A DNA stretch of 64,000 bases from Candidatus Woesearchaeota archaeon (lineage in GTDB: Archaea; Nanobdellota; Nanobdellia; Pacearchaeales; GW2011-AR1). A program made the translations under genes and the position numbers. The notes beneath the pieces were generated by a model. That model had not been told where the DNA came from. It did no database searches and was given only the letters and a program-made list of their open reading frames with translations. Positions 5,986 through 59,140 of the stretch are shown here, piece after piece; positions within the stretch are counted from its first letter, which is position 1, and each line of letters begins with the position of its first letter. The DNA lies in NCBI GenBank assembly GCA_964545065.1, contig CAZJEO010000001.1, positions 53,338 through 117,337 on the forward strand, in the 5' to 3' direction.

Positions 5986-6030
5986 AGAAAATTTAAAATG
6001 GAATTCTATTTAAGGATTTCGGTATTAAAA

Positions 6031-6384
6031 TTAATATAGTTCAGGAGGATTCTCTATTAAAAGGTTACCTGAAGGTATATGATATTTATGGATAAATCCA
6101 TGTAAGTATTCTTGAATAATTCTTCCTGCATGTTTATCTCTCCTAGAGTAATCTAGTGTTCCTGTTATTCCTCCTATTTTTCGCCCTTCCCCTTTTTCAC
6201 AAGTCATTATATCTGCAATAATTCTCGGACCTCTTCCTACGCATTCGCGATTTACTCTTATCATTTCACCTGTTGTAGAAGCAGGCTCTTCAATAACTCT
6301 AAATCCAAATCTTTTTCCACATCCTTGTACAATTTTTTCAATATTTTTTTTCAATTCTTCCATTATTTGTGGATCAGATAACAT
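6031..6384 (-). CDS. hypothetical protein
   Basis: 117-aa ORF with no recognised motif. Confidence 0.5.
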   Translation of the reverse strand: MLSDPQIMEELKKNIEKIVQGCGKRFGFRVIEEPASTTGEMIRVNRECVGRGPRIIADIMTCEKGEGRKIGGITGTLDYSRRDKHAGRIIQEYLHGFIHKYHIPSGNLLIENPPELY

Positions 6385-14131: not shown

Positions 14132-14277
14132 GCGCGGATAGTTTATTGGTAGAATATCTCGTTGCCAATGAGAACCACCAGCGGGTTCTTCACAATTCCT
14201 GCAACCCAGCAGGAAGCTGTAGAATGAATGGTGGAAGCAAAAACGAGGTGAGCCGAGTTCGATTCTCGGTCCGCGCA
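14132..14277 (+). tRNA. tRNA-Gly (GCC) with a 75-nt intron after position 37
   Basis: Acceptor GCGCGGA/TCCGCGC, D arm GTTT-ATTGGTA-GAAT, anticodon stem TCTCG/CGAGG, loop TTGCCA|intron|A, T arm CCGAG-TTCGATT-CTCGG. Spliced length is 71 nt. Confidence 0.85.
14168..14242 (+). other. tRNA-Gly intron (canonical 37/38 position, relaxed bulge-helix-bulge)
   Basis: TTGC (14162..14165) pairs with GCAA (14237..14240), followed by the 3-nt bulge AAA (14241..14243) next to CGAGG. The 5' side is irregular. Internal helices are CCACC/GGTGG, AGAACC/GGTTCT and TTCCTGC/GCAGGAA. Confidence 0.7.
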
Positions 14278-14385
14278 TAACTTTTCGAGAATCTTACCCA
14301 AGGAGGGCACAAGAACCTCTTCGAGGCACTCTCCGAGTTTCCCAAGGGATGATACTTCGTAGGCCTCGATTCTCGGTCCGCGCAT
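14278..14385 (+). other. GC-rich tRNA-Gly pseudo-3'-half with an insert in the T loop (unknown function)
   Basis: Perfect 20-nt repeat of the tRNA 3' end (14259..14278 = 14366..14385). It is preceded by CGAGG and CCGAG-TTT and by the 28-nt insert TTTCCCAAGGGATGATACTTCGTAGGCC, which is also found after tRNA-Trp. Confidence 0.6.
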
Positions 14386-14423: not shown

Positions 14424-15980
14424 ATGGAATCAGACAAATCTGAAGATAGAGACATACCTGAGATGAATCTTAATAAAAAGTATTCTAGCAAACTTCCTGA
14501 AATTCCCCAGACACCAGACAAAATTCAAAAGGAAATGGAGAAAGTTAAGAAAGATCTTGAGAAATTGAAGAATTTTATTGTTAAGAAATATTCTTTTACT
14601 CAGGCGATTGGAATCTTGCCGCCAATGTCAATTAAGTTGTTTGTCGAGGAGGAAGAAGTTCCCAAGGAAACAGAAAAGTATGTTCATTTGTATATGATTG
14701 TTCCTGAAGAAAAATTTAAAGAAATACCAAAAATAAAGAAAGAGATTGTGGCTCATATTGAATCAATGAATGAGAAAATTTGGCTTCATATTAAAACTCC
14801 AGTTGATCTTTGGGAAGTTTGTCTTGATAGTAAATTTGATTTGGCCAGCGCAATTGGGATGTCTTTACCTCTTTATGATAAAGGAATTTTGGGAGCATTG
14901 AGGGTAGCAGAAATTCACAAATCATTGGTTTTACAAAAGTTTGAAAAATATGTTGTTAGCTATGTTATTGGGGGAAGTTTAGTTAGGGGAGAAGCTGTAA
15001 AGACTTCTGATGTTGATGTTTTTATAATTATTAATGATACTGATGTGAAGAGAATGCCGAGGTTGGAGTTGAAGGAAAGGTTAAGGGGAATTATTTACCA
15101 GTATGTTGCTGAAGCTTCTGCGCTTGCTGGTGTTAAGAATAAACTTGAACCGCAAATTTATCTTTTGACTGATTTTTGGGAAAGTGTAAAGGATGCGCAT
15201 CCTGTTATTTTTACTTTTATTAGAGATGGAATTCCTCTTTATGATAGGGGAACATTCATGCCATGGAAAGCTTTGTTGAAAATGGGTAAGTTAAAACCGT
15301 CGCCAGAGGCGATTGAGATGTTTATGTCAATGGGGGATAAGACTGTTACTCGAGCAAAAGCAGGTTTATTAGATATTGTGATTCATGATCTTTATTGGGG
15401 GGTTTTAACTCCAAGCCAGGCAGTTTTAATGCTTTATGGTTTGCCCCCACCAACACATAAGACTGCTGCCAATGAAATGAAAAAGATTTTTGTTGATAAA
15501 GAAAAAATGTTAGAATTAAAGTATGTTAAAATTCTTGAAAAAATTGTTGGAATTTACAAGGATTATGAGCATGAGAAAATAAAGGACATTAAAGGTGCTG
15601 AAGTTGATAAGCTGATTAAAGATACAGAAGATTATTTGAAGAGGTTGAAAGAATTGAGAGAGCAAATTGAGAAGCGAACTTCTGAGAAAACAATTGAACA
15701 AATTTATGCGGACACTTTTAGTGTTTTGAAAGGAATGCTTGGAAATAAAACGCAAAAAGCAATGGTTGAAAGTTTTGAGAAAGATTTGGTTAAGAAGGGC
15801 AAGATGCCACCGCACAATTTGAGGATTTTGAAGAATATTATTTCTGCACGAGTAGATTTTAAAAAAGGAAAGTTGAACGTCCATAAAGTTGATGATGCTC
15901 GAAAACAAGCTTCGATTTTGATGAATGATTTGATTGAATATAATCAGAGATGTGATTTGGCTAATGGGAAGAAAAAATAA
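14424..15980 (+). CDS. nucleotidyltransferase-domain protein (pol-beta superfamily) with a long helical C-terminal region
   Basis: ORF 14406..15980. NTase motif GGSLVRGEAVKTSDVDVFIIIND. ATG 14424 sits 22 nt after AACTTTTAAATA (14391..14402). Paralogous to 17469..18329. Confidence 0.7.
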   Translation: MESDKSEDRDIPEMNLNKKYSSKLPEIPQTPDKIQKEMEKVKKDLEKLKNFIVKKYSFTQAIGILPPMSIKLFVEEEEVPKETEKYVHLYMIVPEEKFKEIPKIKKEIVAHIESMNEKIWLHIKTPVDLWEVCLDSKFDLASAIGMSLPLYDKGILGALRVAEIHKSLVLQKFEKYVVSYVIGGSLVRGEAVKTSDVDVFIIINDTDVKRMPRLELKERLRGIIYQYVAEASALAGVKNKLEPQIYLLTDFWESVKDAHPVIFTFIRDGIPLYDRGTFMPWKALLKMGKLKPSPEAIEMFMSMGDKTVTRAKAGLLDIVIHDLYWGVLTPSQAVLMLYGLPPPTHKTAANEMKKIFVDKEKMLELKYVKILEKIVGIYKDYEHEKIKDIKGAEVDKLIKDTEDYLKRLKELREQIEKRTSEKTIEQIYADTFSVLKGMLGNKTQKAMVESFEKDLVKKGKMPPHNLRILKNIISARVDFKKGKLNVHKVDDARKQASILMNDLIEYNQRCDLANGKKK

Positions 15981-21808: not shown

Positions 21809-22408
21809 CTACAAGTTAACTTTCCTGTATTTTTTCTGCTCTGGTTCAAAAGGCATCCGTCTTTCTTGTTCAAGAGTTTCTGTTGTGAATCTTGGTTCAT
21901 TGTTCTCTTGAATTTCAATCCGAGGCTCTGTTCCGCGCATTAAAACTTCCTGATTTCTTCCAGTTAATCTTGTTGATTCTAATACAGGAGCACCAATACT
22001 TTCATATTTTTTTTCAGATGTTTTTGTCCTTCTGAAATCATTGTATCGTGGTTCATTCTCTGAAATTGGTGAAGTAGTGTAATCAATTCTTGTTTGGTCC
22101 TCTTTATTTTCTTGTTGGGAATTAGGGAGGTTTAATTCTAATGCTTTTTGTGTTTGGACTCTTTCAAGAACTGGTGCACGAGAATTTGTTTCAATTTGAG
22201 TAAAGGATTGTTCAAATCCAGATTCTTCAATTTTATCTGCTTCTTTAATATTTTTTTCTAAAGGAGAACCACCAGCGGGTTCTTCCCAGTTCCTGCGACC
22301 TAACAGGAAGTTGATTTCAGATTTTTTTTCGACTATCTTTTTCTTTTTTTTAATCTCTTTGATTTTCTTTTGTTTTGTTTTAGAAATCCCTTTCTTTTTC
22401 TTTGGCAT
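21809..22408 (-). CDS. Lys-rich low-complexity protein, hypothetical
   Basis: 199 aa. N-terminus MPKKKKGISKTKQKKIKEIKKKKK, repeated APVLE motif. Sits between two co-directional genes with gaps of 2 nt (upstream) and 38 nt (downstream). Confidence 0.5.
   Translation of the reverse strand: MPKKKKGISKTKQKKIKEIKKKKKIVEKKSEINFLLGRRNWEEPAGGSPLEKNIKEADKIEESGFEQSFTQIETNSRAPVLERVQTQKALELNLPNSQQENKEDQTRIDYTTSPISENEPRYNDFRRTKTSEKKYESIGAPVLESTRLTGRNQEVLMRGTEPRIEIQENNEPRFTTETLEQERRMPFEPEQKKYRKVNL
22264..22313. repeat. copy of the tRNA-Gly-intron two-hairpin module inside a CDS
   Basis: 44/50 nt identical to 14170..14219. The first 22 nt (GAGAACCACCAGCGGGTTCTTC) are identical. Same + orientation, so antisense to the host mRNA. 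Confidence 0.85.
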
Positions 22409-33526: not shown

Positions 33527-34714
33527 ATGAAAAAAAATAGCACCCAAGGGCGTACCCCGAAAAATTCTTTTCAAGAATTTTTACAAAGGGCAAAAATAAC
33601 TAAAGGATTTAGAGATTATACTGGAGAAGAAGCTCAAAAAAGAGCAGAGATTCGAAAGGCTTTGGTTGAGATTTTTGAGACATATGGGTTTGAGCCAGCT
33701 GAGACTCCGATTATTGAGAGTGAGGAATTTGTGAAGGGTGAGAATGCGCAGGATGAATCTGTGAGCGATATTTTTAAATTGCAAGATAAGGGGAAGCGGA
33801 AACTTGCGTTGCGTTATGAATTGACTTTTCCGTTGCAAAGAATTATGAAGAATAAGAAACTTCCTTATAGAACTTATAGGATTGGGGAAGTTTTTAGGGA
33901 CGAGCCTGTTTCAGCAAATCGTGTTAGACAGTTTACTTCTTGTGATGCAGATATTATTGGCGTGCAAAATATTGCAGAAGAAGCAGAGATTTTTTCATTG
34001 ATTAAAACTATTTTGGATAAGCTCAATATAAAATTTACAATTTATGTAAACAATAGAAAACTGTTGAACGAAATTTTAAATGAACAGAAAATTAAGAATG
34101 TGTCTGAGGTTGTGAGAATTTTAGATAAGCTTGATAAAAAACCAGAGAAAGAAGTGAAAGAAGAATTGAAGAAATTTGGGGCAGAGAAAATTGTGGGTAT
34201 TTTGAAAAAGCCAGAAAACTATTTTAAGAAATATGACTCTTATAAAGAAATTATTGCATTGCAAAAATATTGCAAGTATTATAATGTTAAAATTAAATTT
34301 GTTCCTAATTTAGTGCGTGGGTTGAGTTATTATAATGGAACTATTTTTGAAGTGAAGTCAGATATTCGGGAAACGATTATTGGCGGAGGCGCGTTTGTTT
34401 TTAATAATGTTCAGTCGATTGGGTTTGGAGTTAGTATAGAAAGATTGTCTGCTGTTTCAAAGATAGAAGTTGAAAAATTAGAAACTTTGATTATTAGTAT
34501 TGGACAAGATAGAGAAGCGATAAAATTATCTGAAAGACTTCGTGCGAAAGGAAAGAATGTTTTGATTTATTATGGGAAGCCGTCGAAGGCCATGGAATAT
34601 GCGAACAGCAAAGGAATTGGTGAAGTTATTTTTGTTGGAAAGAAAGAAGTTGCAAGTGGAAAGTTTAAGATTAAGGATATGAAGAGTGGTGGGGAGAGAG
34701 TTTTGAGGGTTTGA
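33527..34714 (+). CDS. hisS: histidyl-tRNA synthetase
   Basis: Class II motifs LALRYELTFPLQR and RIGEVFRDEPVSANRVRQFTSCDADIIG, with a C-terminal anticodon-binding-like domain. Begins 18 nt after tRNA-His. Confidence 0.85.
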   Translation: MKKNSTQGRTPKNSFQEFLQRAKITKGFRDYTGEEAQKRAEIRKALVEIFETYGFEPAETPIIESEEFVKGENAQDESVSDIFKLQDKGKRKLALRYELTFPLQRIMKNKKLPYRTYRIGEVFRDEPVSANRVRQFTSCDADIIGVQNIAEEAEIFSLIKTILDKLNIKFTIYVNNRKLLNEILNEQKIKNVSEVVRILDKLDKKPEKEVKEELKKFGAEKIVGILKKPENYFKKYDSYKEIIALQKYCKYYNVKIKFVPNLVRGLSYYNGTIFEVKSDIRETIIGGGAFVFNNVQSIGFGVSIERLSAVSKIEVEKLETLIISIGQDREAIKLSERLRAKGKNVLIYYGKPSKAMEYANSKGIGEVIFVGKKEVASGKFKIKDMKSGGERVLRV

Positions 34715-58752: not shown

Positions 58753-58834
58753 AAATAAGATATTTCTTGTAAAATAGTACTCGCGAGCCCACTCGCAATC
58801 AAGGGCGATTGAGAAGGCTTCGTGAACGTCGCTC

Positions 58835-58905
58835 GGGTGCGTCGTACACTGGTAGTATACCTGCCTCCAGAGCAGATGAAGGGGGTTCGATTCCCTCCGT
58901 GCCCA
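58835..58905 (+). tRNA. tRNA-Trp (CCA), intron-less
   Basis: Acceptor GGGTGCG/CGTGCCC (two G-U pairs), D arm GTAC-ACTGGTA-GTAT, anticodon arm CCTGC-CTCCAGA-GCAGA, T arm GGGGG-TTCGATT-CCCTC. Confidence 0.8.
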
Positions 58906-58975
58906 TCGGGCTCTCACCCCAAGGGGTTTCCCACAGGGATGACCTACTTCGTAGGCCGCGATTCCCTGGTGCCCA
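58906..58975 (+). other. GC-rich tRNA-Trp pseudo-3'-half with an insert in the T loop (unknown function)
   Basis: AGGGG-TTT + insert TTTCCCACAGGGATGACCTACTTCGTAGGCC (58927..58957) + GCGATT-CCCT-GGTGCCCA mimics the tRNA-Trp T arm and acceptor 3' strand (1 deletion, 1 substitution). The insert matches the one after tRNA-Gly. Confidence 0.6.
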
Positions 58976-59140
58976 TTTCTGTAATAAATAAGGTAAATAA
59001 AATGTCATTTGATGGTTTGCATGTAATTTGTAGTAAGCATTTAGTGGAAACCCGGTATTGTTGCATTGAGATGAAATGGGTTTGCACAAAGTGCGAGCTG
59101 GAAGGGGAAGTTTTATAAATCAAGTGTGTTGCTTTTGGAT

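What the first reader, a model, noticed from the sequence alone, without database searches (positions are those of the whole stretch)
58906..58975. tRNA-Trp trailer repeats the tRNA-Gly architecture: a pseudo T-arm and acceptor strand, with the same insert
**The pseudo 3' half.** After the tRNA-Trp 3' end comes TCGGGCTCTCACCCCA-AGGGG-TTT-[CCCACAGGGATGACCTACTTCGTAGGCC]-GCGATT-CCCT-GGTGCCCA. The flanks copy this tRNA's own T stem and acceptor 3' strand (CCCTCCGTGCCCA versus CCCTGGTGCCCA), not those of tRNA-Gly. The bracketed insert is essentially the one at 14338..14365, with 28 shared positions and three 1-2-nt gaps.

**Predicted fold.**
- Hairpin CCUAC-UUC-GUAGG (58943..58955).
- AGGGAUGA (58935..58942) pairing with GAUUCCCU (58960..58967): five Watson-Crick pairs, one U-U pair, and tandem G-A/A-G pairs.
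- A 4-nt bulge (CCGC).

This gives K-turn-like geometry. Two independent loci with locus-specific flanks and a shared insert point to an active process or a functional RNA, rather than chance.
Basis: partly seen in the sequence, partly recalled or inferred. Interest (0 to 1): 0.7.

Follow-up and report, generated by a model that had tools for sequence, protein, structure and literature searches.

The report
Tiny mobile insert behind tRNA genes

Summary
tRNA-Trp (58835-58905) is followed by a 70-nt unit that ends in a slightly decayed copy of the tRNA's last 18 nt. tRNA-Gly (trailer 14278-14384) has the same architecture.

I found it in relatives too:
- at tRNA-Trp in five other Pacearchaeota-like lineages;
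- at tRNA-Arg in a Woesearchaeota MAG.

Four orthologous tRNA-Trp loci are cleanly empty. Element variants do not follow host or tRNA phylogeny, which points to horizontal spread.

The unit is composite:
- a spacer, TCTCACCCCAAGGGG;
- a "K" module, TTTCCCAAGGGATGA + variable hairpin + CCNCG;
- in long forms, an extra ~31-nt hairpin module "M".

K and M also occur away from tRNAs, and M even sits in frame inside a gene. Other tRNA-Gly loci carry the same 3'-end duplication with unrelated fillers.

Structure tests:
- The apical hairpin is supported by compensatory changes.
- The proposed K-turn stem has no covariation, needs a 4-nt bulge, and is absent from free K copies.
- I found no convincing BHB intron motif among many weak candidates, and no Rfam match, integrase or viral counterpart.

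Best reading: a miniature att-type integrative or mobile element. The insertion mechanism is unresolved. Interest is moderate.

The parts
58835..58905 (+). Intact tRNA-Trp(CCA), 71 nt, no intron, no encoded CCA
   Evidence: ARAGORN; Rfam RF00005, 52.5 bits
58888..58905 (+). Direct repeat 1: T-loop C56 to discriminator A73 of the working tRNA (CGATTCCCTCCGTGCCCA)
   Evidence: Sequence; only exact copy in the window
58906..58913 (+). Start of the spacer (TCGGGCTC): a decayed complement of GATTCCC. In tRNA-Gly the equivalent CGAGAATC is a perfect 8-nt complement of GATTCTCG.
   Evidence: Sequence comparison of 8 copies; helix counted: 67% paired, one compensatory pair, not significant
58912..58926 (+). 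Conserved spacer module TCTCACCCCAAGGGG (small hairpin ACCC-CAAG-GGGT). Present at tRNA-Trp and tRNA-Arg loci and, as the variant TCTTACCCAAGG interrupted by module M, at tRNA-Gly.
58927..58960 (+). Module K: TTTCCCACAGGGATGA + hairpin CCTAC-TTC-GTAGG (58943-58955) + CCGCG.
   Evidence: Motif search; nhmmer hits in 7 other distinct loci, including two tRNA-free copies in L013; the hairpin varies with compensatory changes
58959..58975 (+). Direct repeat 2: decayed copy of the tRNA-Trp 3' end (CGATTCCCTGGTGCCCA), followed by the T-run TTTCT that follows the tRNA directly at empty orthologous sites
   Evidence: empty sites L011 and L023; regex match with 1 substitution and 1 deletion
14132..14277 (+). 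tRNA-Gly(GCC) with a 75-nt intron at 37/38; its last 18 nt (14260-14277) are direct repeat 1 of the second locus
   Evidence: Rfam; ARAGORN with introns
14278..14384 (+). Long-form copy of the same element: CGAGAATC (14286-14293), module M (about 14297-14328), CCGAG-TT (14334-14340), module K (14338-14368), and a perfect direct repeat 2 (14367-14384)

Best explanation
**What it is.** The trailer is a miniature, non-coding, DNA-level mobile or integrative element. It belongs to a family found in Pacearchaeota/Woesearchaeota-like DPANN archaea.

- The upstream copy completes a working tRNA.
- The downstream copy is the displaced or duplicated target, and it is free to decay.
- This is the topology left by att-type (Campbell/site-specific) recombination with crossover in the T-loop, or by a long target-site duplication.

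**What it is built from.** The filler is made of small G+C-rich hairpin modules: the spacer, K, and optionally M. These modules also occur elsewhere in the same genomes.

**Shown versus inferred.**
- Shown: recurrence, locus-specific repeats, empty sites, discordance between element and host, free copies of the modules, and the absence of a coding gene inside the unit.
- Inferred: that it moves as DNA, that an enzyme acting in trans inserts it, and that the K-turn-like pairing with the T-loop half is incidental.
For: 1. **Same unit at three tRNA identities, each with its own 3'-end copy.**
   - Trp and Gly in the window.
   - Arg in the Woesearchaeota MAG L001.
2. **Orthologous tRNA-Trp loci are either filled or cleanly empty.**
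   - Filled: L002, L004/L006, L008/L010, L013/L015, L020/L021.
   - Empty: L007, L011, L016/L017, L023/L024.
   - L007 and L008 encode an identical neighbouring protein and an identical tRNA, yet differ in occupancy.
   - L011 and L023 keep the same downstream small ORF as the window.
3. **Element variants do not follow host phylogeny.**
   - L013 and L020 come from the same TARA sample. Their tRNAs differ at 15 of 71 positions and their neighbouring protein is 78% identical. Yet K, the hairpin and the tail show 0 differences.
   - The window and L008 tRNAs differ at 1 of 71 positions but carry different hairpin types.
4. **Modules K and M occur away from tRNAs**.
   - M is a 31-nt insertion relative to sister copies.
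   - M is a 30-nt in-frame insertion in a coding region.
5. **The 3'-end duplication recurs with unrelated fillers** at tRNA-Gly in L025 and L031, so the duplication is a general process at these tRNAs.
6. **Conservation is uneven.** The pseudo-acceptor decays (L013, window) while the core is conserved.
7. **An 8-T run separates tRNA and element in L020**, which argues against obligatory co-transcription.
8. **DR1 and DR2 differ** in L004 (C versus T at position 68) and in the tRNA-Arg copy (discriminator A versus G). This fits an incoming copy of the tRNA end.
9. **Background.** Archaeal integrases prefer the 3' ends and T stem-loops of tRNA genes, restore an intact tRNA, and switch between tRNA targets (PMC8371274; PMC3293823).
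Against: - No integrase or transposase gene lies inside the element or within the stretches I could examine. No distant third copy of the tRNA end lies within about 10 kb.
- A 52-107-nt unit is far smaller than any known integrative element, and too small to circularise as duplex DNA.
- It has no terminal inverted repeats. A 17-18-nt duplication is longer than a typical transposon target-site duplication.
- Three viral-contig scans found nothing related.
- The core is more conserved than the tRNA itself between some lineages. Host-level selection on a function could also produce that pattern.
- The sample is small: 8 distinct tRNA-linked copies.
Confidence: 0.55

Rival explanations
1. The trailer is a functional RNA co-transcribed with the tRNA. 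tRNase Z releases it, and it folds into a K-turn (UGA / GAU) that binds L7Ae. The tRNA-derived 3' strand forms the non-canonical stem or acts as a processing handle.
For: - GGGAUGA and CGAUUCC are invariant in all 8 tRNA-linked copies.
- The stem is 92.5% pairable and tolerates T-stem differences through G-U pairs.
- The C-stem hairpin keeps pairing through compensatory changes.
- The core is conserved while the pseudo-acceptor decays.
- All tRNA-linked copies are on the tRNA sense strand.
Against: - No pair changes on both sides, and the observed value equals every shuffle.
- The bulge is 4 nt (CCGC/CCUC), not 3.
- Two free K copies lack the GAU strand.
- L008 has 31 nt inserted inside GGGAU|GA.
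- RNAalifold gives -6 kcal/mol with a covariation term of +0.17, and picks another partner for GGGAUGA.
- MFE z-scores are -0.3 to -0.9.
- L020 has an 8-T run before the element.
- Close relatives do without it (L007, L011).
- There is no Rfam match.
Confidence: 0.2
2. Each trailer is a deletion remnant of a full-size virus or plasmid that integrated through a tRNA att site: a fused attL/attR scar. The conserved spacer and insert are the two arms next to attP in one family of elements.
For: - Direct repeats of the tRNA 3' end with an intact tRNA upstream are the classical att topology.
- Fillers differ between lineages at tRNA-Gly.
- The element variant tracks the sample rather than the host.
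- DR1 and DR2 are not always identical.
Against: - Independent deletions would not give the same junction at Trp, Arg and Gly.
- No full-length version or integrase turned up in any locus.
- No viral contig carries the arms.
- Modules K and M also occur on their own.
Confidence: 0.17
3. The downstream copy is a relic or alternative 3' half of the tRNA that carries a T-loop (non-canonical) bulge-helix-bulge intron. The intron has been transposed between tRNA genes, as proposed for Thermoproteales.
For: - The insert sits nominally at T-loop position 55/56.
- tRNA-Gly in the same window has a BHB intron.
- DPANN archaea have broad-specificity splicing endonucleases (PMC5829648, listed).
- Similar inserts in different tRNAs recall intron transposition.
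Against: - A scan for helix / 4 bp / 3-nt-bulge geometry returned many weak, wobble-based candidates and no convincing BHB around the insert. The scan also missed the real tRNA-Gly intron, which I identified as a relaxed BHB only by hand.
- The upstream tRNA is complete, and the pseudo-half has no 5' partner.
- The downstream copy is decayed in the window and in L013.
- The same module occurs outside tRNAs.
Confidence: 0.05
4. The resemblance between the two trailers is chance, or an assembly artefact.
For: None beyond the small size of the motif.
Against: - 0 of 100 shuffles give the motif.
- The same architecture appears in independent assemblies from NCBI, ENA and JGI.
Confidence: 0.01

Closest known systems
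Integrative elements using tRNA-gene att sites (archaeal tyrosine-recombinase integrases of SSV, pNOB8 or pT26-2 type; T-loop or 3'-end sublocation)
   Same: - An intact tRNA is followed by foreign DNA and then by a direct repeat of the tRNA's 3' segment starting in the T-loop.
- Related elements use different tRNAs.
- Occupancy is patchy among close relatives.
   Different: - The filler is only 52-107 nt.
- It encodes nothing, and I found no integrase nearby.
- The same short filler recurs at different tRNAs.
MITE, REP and Rickettsia-palindromic-element type small repeats
   Same: - Short, non-coding and multi-copy.
- Hairpin-forming and G+C-rich relative to the genome.
- Presence/absence polymorphism.
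- Sister modules (M, Q) are inserted in frame in protein-coding genes.
   Different: - No terminal inverted repeats.
- A 17-18-nt duplicated target made of a tRNA end.
- No associated transposase or RAYT identified.
- An archaeal DPANN host.
Kink-turn (Kt-7, box C/D, C'/D' type) RNA motifs bound by L7Ae
   Same: The tRNA-linked copies have a helix, an asymmetric loop, then G-A/A-G and U-U followed by Watson-Crick pairs. The order is D'-like (NUGA) ... C'-like (GAU).
   Different: - A 4-nt loop instead of 3.
- No box C or box D consensus.
- No covariation.
- The 3' strand is simply the universal T-loop GAUUCC, and it is missing from free copies.
Non-canonical (T-loop) BHB introns and archaeal tRNA intron transposition; split or fragmented tRNA genes (Sugahara et al. 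2012, PMC3293823)
   Same: - An insert at a T-loop position.
- Similar inserts in different tRNAs.
- tRNA fragments lying next to tRNA genes.
   Different: - No convincing BHB motif.
- The interrupted copy is not part of a working tRNA.
- The working tRNA is uninterrupted in its T-loop.

Membership tests
Kink-turn RNA | Tandem sheared G-A / A-G pairs next to the loop, flanked by a Watson-Crick C-stem | tested here: inconclusive
   The sequence is compatible in all 8 tRNA-linked copies: UGA before the hairpin and GAU after the loop. The C-stem hairpin is supported by compensatory variants. Sheared pairs cannot be shown from sequence.
Kink-turn RNA | Three-nucleotide bulge between the C-stem and the G-A pairs | tested here: not met
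   The bulge is 4 nt (CCGC or CCUC) in every copy.
Kink-turn RNA | The motif is kept wherever the RNA family occurs, and the NC stem is supported by covariation | tested here: not met
   No pair changes on both sides, and the observed value equals all 500 shuffles. Two free K copies lack the GAU strand. L008 has an insertion inside GGGAU|GA.
Kink-turn RNA | Binding by L7Ae | not testable with these tools
   Needs a gel-shift assay or structure probing.
Box C/D sRNA | Box C (RUGAUGA) and box D (CUGA) with guide regions | tested here: not met
   No CUGA is present. GGGAUGA departs from box C. Rfam gives only an 8-E-value, 10-bit hit on the opposite strand.
BHB (bulge-helix-bulge) tRNA intron | Two 3-nt bulges separated by a 4-bp helix at the insert boundaries | tested here: inconclusive
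   The geometry scan returned many weak, wobble-based candidates and nothing convincing at the insert. It also missed the real tRNA-Gly intron, which I recognised as a relaxed BHB only by hand.
BHB (bulge-helix-bulge) tRNA intron | It interrupts an otherwise complete tRNA | tested here: not met
   The interrupted copy has only a T-arm and an acceptor 3' strand. The complete tRNA lies upstream and is uninterrupted there.
Integrated element at a tRNA att site | Direct repeat of a tRNA 3' segment, with an intact tRNA on one side | tested here: met
   Repeats of 17-18 nt at Trp, Gly and Arg. Further cases at tRNA-Gly in L025 and L031.
Integrated element at a tRNA att site | An integrase/recombinase gene and a kilobase-size body between the repeats | tested here: not met
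   The repeats are 52-118 nt apart. Pfam gives no recombinase among the seven tRNA-adjacent ORFs scanned. No distant repeat lies within about 10 kb.
MITE | Terminal inverted repeats and a short (2-10 bp) target-site duplication | tested here: not met
   The ends share no inverted repeat across copies. The duplication is 17-18 nt.
MITE | Short, non-coding, multi-copy, with presence/absence polymorphism | tested here: met
tRNA minihelix (substrate for CCA-adding enzyme, RNase P or tRNase Z) | A 7-bp acceptor stem stacked on a T-arm | tested here: not met
   tRNA-Gly has no 5' strand complementary to UCCGCGC. tRNA-Trp has only GGGC/GCCC. The pseudo-acceptor has decayed in L013.

The most novel reading that the evidence does not exclude
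Pace-/Woesearchaeota harbour an undescribed class of ultra-small (about 50-110 nt) structured mobile elements.
- They integrate in the T-loop of tRNA genes.
- They duplicate, or carry, the tRNA's last 17-18 nt.
- They spread horizontally between co-resident lineages with no gene of their own.
- They belong to a wider set of G+C-rich hairpin modules that also insert in frame into protein-coding genes and into tRNA introns.

The inserting enzyme is unknown. It could be an integrase acting in trans, or an RNA-level route using the splicing endonuclease and ligase. Such elements could be the vectors that seed T-loop inserts or introns in archaeal tRNAs.
Probability: 0.3. Interest if true: 0.7.

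Novelty: new variant of a known kind. Interest (0 to 1): 0.5.

Why it matters
**If the mobile reading holds,** tiny-genome DPANN archaea carry a family of gene-less, structured mini-elements that target tRNA 3' ends and even coding DNA.
- This gives a concrete, testable case for how tRNA gene fragments, T-loop inserts and non-canonical introns arise. That question has been open since split and multi-intron archaeal tRNAs were found.
- It also flags a practical annotation problem. Such modules inflate ORFs and imitate tRNA halves.

**If the RNA reading holds instead,** this would be a new tRNA-linked K-turn sRNA.

Tried and rejected
1. **Rfam**, at gathering and permissive thresholds: only the tRNAs match; the trailer has no family.
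2. **BHB geometry scan** of all trailers: many weak, wobble-based candidates and nothing convincing. The scan also missed the real tRNA-Gly intron, so it is not conclusive.
3. **Thermodynamics:** MFE z-scores of the trailers are unremarkable. Only the tRNA-Gly precursor with its intron stands out.
4. **Covariation tests** of the K-turn stem and of the spacer/T-loop helix: no support. RNAalifold is weak.
5. **A large integrated element:** no third copy of the tRNA ends and no recombinase among the seven tRNA-adjacent ORFs scanned.
6. **Viral contigs:** three scans. The 14-mer gave 120 hits, all chance matches without the hairpin/CCNCG signature.
7. **Metagenome scan:** two of the four hits (L003, L005) are G+C-rich chance matches with no tRNA.
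8. **Coding potential:** 1-2-nt indels between copies shift the frame, so the element is not a gene fragment such as a split integrase.
9. **Terminal inverted repeats:** an apparent CGG(G/C)CT match in tRNA-Trp is not shared by the Arg or Gly copies.
10. **Literature:** searches for DPANN/Pacearchaeota tRNA trailers, T-loop introns and MITE-like repeats found no description of this element.
11. **Relatedness of L001 to the window** could not be measured, because no shared genes were held.

Full report
**Setting.**
The window is A+T-rich, at about 32% G+C. It encodes archaeal Spt4, RpoE', ribosomal proteins and intron-bearing tRNAs. The closest protein relatives are labelled Pacearchaeota.

**The observation.**
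- tRNA-Trp(CCA) is 58835-58905.
- The next 70 nt read TCGGGCTC-TCACCCCAAGGGG-TT-TCCCACAGGGATGA-CCTACTTCGTAGG-CCG-CGATTCCCTGGTGCCCA.
- The last 17 nt copy the tRNA's C56-A73 with two substitutions and one deletion.
- tRNA-Gly(GCC) lies at 14132-14277 and has a 75-nt intron at 37/38. A longer version follows it and ends in a perfect 18-nt copy of its own 3' end.
- The shared core GGGATGA-N-CTTCGTAGGCC occurs twice in the window and in none of 100 shuffles.
- tRNA-Tyr, tRNA-Val and tRNA-His in the window have no such trailer.

**Recurrence elsewhere.**
- One scan of species-representative genomes found the unit after tRNA-Arg(TCG) in a Woesearchaeota MAG: CTTCGGAATCTCACCGCAAGG-GTT-TCCACAAGGGATGACCTACTTCGTAGGCCT-CGATTCCTCGTGGGTTCG. 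Its 17-nt copy is that of tRNA-Arg.
- A metagenome scan found two tRNA-Trp loci, L002 and L004.
- Synteny through the upstream DUF3368 gene gave more tRNA-Trp loci.
  - Filled: L006, L008/L010, L013/L015, L020/L021.
  - Empty: L007, L011, L016/L017, L023/L024.
- L007 and L008 encode the identical neighbouring protein and identical tRNA, yet only L008 has the element.
- L011 and L023 are empty but keep the downstream small ORF (MSFDG...) seen in the window. There the T-run that follows repeat 2 in the window follows the tRNA directly.

**Anatomy.**
Comparing eight distinct tRNA-linked copies shows a composite, not "a T-arm with one insert".
1. *First bases after the tRNA.* They are a more or less decayed complement of GATTC plus the T-stem 3' strand.
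   - Gly has CGAGAATC, a perfect 8 bp.
   - Arg has GGAATC.
   - The Trp copies have GGGCTC, GGGTTC, AGAATC or TTAATC.
2. *Conserved spacer.* TCTCACC(C)CAAGGG(G) follows at all three tRNA identities.
3. *Module K.* TTTCC(C)A(C)AGGGATGA, a hairpin, then CC(G/T)CG.
4. *The tRNA 3' copy.*

Long forms carry an extra module M of about 31 nt. It has hairpin NNCC-AAGGA-GGNN, a linker, and hairpin CCTN-loop-NAGG, with CCTC/GAGG against CCTG/CAGG as a compensatory change.
- In the window tRNA-Gly copy and in L004, M sits in the spacer.
- In L008 it sits inside GGGAT|GA.

**The modules occur on their own.**
- M lies free downstream of the elements in L001 and L020.
- M is a 30-nt in-frame insertion (PRRRENLSEA) in a DUF1858 gene of L013.
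- K occurs twice in L013 far from any tRNA, with hairpins CCC-TGCT-GGG and CTC-TGCT-GAG. Neither copy has the GATTCC strand.
- Other G+C-rich modules behave alike.
  - About 47 nt of the tRNA-Gly intron recur at 22264-22310, inside a gene on the other strand, and also in L031.
  - A module 'Q' lies in the HisRS N-terminus of the window (about 33541-33592). It is a 60-nt in-frame insertion in a NifU loop of L007, read in a different frame.

**The duplication is general.**
At tRNA-Gly orthologues the 3' end is duplicated with unrelated fillers. L025 has a 17-nt repeat 118 nt downstream. L031 has two further partial copies. L029 is empty.

Across the distinct loci held:

| tRNA | Loci with a nearby copy of the 3' end |
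|---|---|
| Trp | 6 of 10 |
| Gly | 3 of 4 |
| Arg | 1 of 1 |
| Val | 0 of 4 |
| His | 0 of 2 |
| Tyr | 0 of 1 |

**Structure tests.**
- The apical hairpin is real in the sense that four sequence variants keep pairing.
- The K-turn stem AGGGA/UCCCU is 92.5% pairable. But its 5' strand never varies, no pair changes on both sides, the value equals all shuffles, and a 1-column slide still gives 85%.
- The bulge would be 4 nt.
- The spacer/T-loop helix is 67% paired with one compensatory pair, which is not significant.
- RNAalifold gives -6 kcal/mol with no covariation, and pairs GGGAUGA with UCACCC instead.
- MFE z-scores are -0.3 to -0.9.
- A BHB geometry scan returned many weak candidates and nothing convincing in the trailers. 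It is not conclusive, because it also missed the real tRNA-Gly intron, which I recognised as a relaxed BHB only by hand.
- Rfam has nothing for the trailer.

**Evolutionary pattern.**
- L013 and L020 come from the same TARA sample. Their tRNA-Trp differ at 15 of 71 positions and their neighbouring protein is 78% identical. Yet K, the hairpin and CCGCGATTCCC are identical, and the spacer differs only by indels.
- The window and L008 tRNAs differ at 1 of 71 positions but carry different hairpin types.
- The hairpin sequence is free to differ between types. Its identity in divergent hosts from one sample therefore points to horizontal spread rather than constraint.
- The pseudo-acceptor has decayed in L013 (CCCCTGTGCAATTC) and in the window and L002, while the core is intact.
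- L020 has eight T's between tRNA and element. From general knowledge of archaeal oligo-T termination, this is a probable terminator.

**Interpretation.**
The topology is an intact tRNA, then a filler, then a repeat of the tRNA from the T-loop onward. This is what recombination at a tRNA att site leaves. Archaeal integrases favour tRNA 3' ends and T stem-loops, and they switch tRNA targets (PMC8371274; compare PMC3293823).

What differs is the scale. The filler is 52-107 nt, encodes nothing, and is the same at three different tRNAs. I found no integrase, no full-length parent and no viral counterpart.

I therefore commit to a miniature, gene-less mobile or integrative DNA element built from hairpin modules, with confidence 0.55. 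The downstream 'pseudo 3' half' is the displaced or duplicated target. The K-turn-like pairing is an incidental consequence of K abutting the universal T-loop GAUUCC.

Whether the unit moves as such or is a recurrent remnant of larger elements is unresolved. So is the enzyme that inserts it. A functional K-turn RNA remains possible at about 0.2, and a BHB-intron relic is unlikely.

**Limits.**
- There are only eight distinct tRNA-linked copies.
- The collection scans were exact-match and capped, so divergent members were missed.
- There are no expression data.

Noticed in passing
window 58777-58834: A G+C-rich leader of about 58 nt (GTACTCGCGAGCCCACTCGCAATCAAGGGCGATTGAGAAGGCTTCGTGAACGTCGCTC) lies between the promoter-like A+T box and the tRNA-Trp 5' end. 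Orthologous loci L002 and L004 lack it; there the promoter box abuts the tRNA. Its GAGCCC is complementary to the trailer's GGGCTC. It looks like another inserted module that RNase P would have to remove.
   Followed up: partly
window 22264-22310 (+), inside the minus-strand ORF 21809-22408; also L031 17673-17710: About 47 nt of the tRNA-Gly intron (GAGAACCACCAGCGGGTTCTTC...TTCCTGC...CAGGAAG) recur inside a protein-coding gene on the opposite strand (89% identity), and at the orthologous place in L031. A similar hairpin (AGGAGAACCACTGGTTCTCCT) follows the element in L020.
   Followed up: partly
window about 33541-33592 (HisRS N-terminus); L004 5853; L013 11158; L007 about 14617-14676: Module 'Q' is CACCCAAGGGCGTACCCCGAAA + a covarying A/T hairpin + TACAAAGGG. 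It lies inside coding regions of unrelated genes (HisRS, DUF1858, NifU). In L007 it is a 60-nt in-frame insertion in a NifU loop, read in a different frame from the others. This makes it a nucleotide-level element tolerated in proteins, reminiscent of Rickettsia palindromic elements.
   Followed up: partly
L013 11171-11200: Module M (CCAAGGAGGCGCGAGAACCTTTCCGAGG) is inserted in frame (30 nt, PRRRENLSEA) inside module Q, at the N-terminus of a DUF1858 gene. In non-coding trailers the same module is a 31-nt insertion.
   Followed up: yes
window 14169-14243; L025 1454-1524; L031 6106-6227; L016 11132-11254: Intron content of orthologous tRNAs varies among close relatives.
- tRNA-Gly(GCC) has a 75-nt intron in the window, none in L025 (neighbouring protein 92% identical), and a 48-nt homologous intron in L031.
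- tRNA-Trp has a 52-nt intron only in L016/L017.
   Followed up: partly
L025 1336-1453 (-) and L031 about 5990-6105 (-): The fillers between duplicated tRNA-Gly 3' ends contain degenerate inverted and direct fragments of the tRNA end. L025 has GAGCGCGAGA...TCTCGCGTGA. L031 has GGGGTTCGA, and a repeat that extends 14 nt beyond the tRNA. This suggests repeated rounds of events at the same site.
   Followed up: no
window 59003-59118 and orthologues in L008, L011, L013, L023: A conserved small ORF (MSFDGLHVICSKH...C..C.KCE, cysteine-rich, about 38 aa) lies directly downstream of tRNA-Trp or the element in several lineages. It is deleted together with the element in L007.
   Followed up: no
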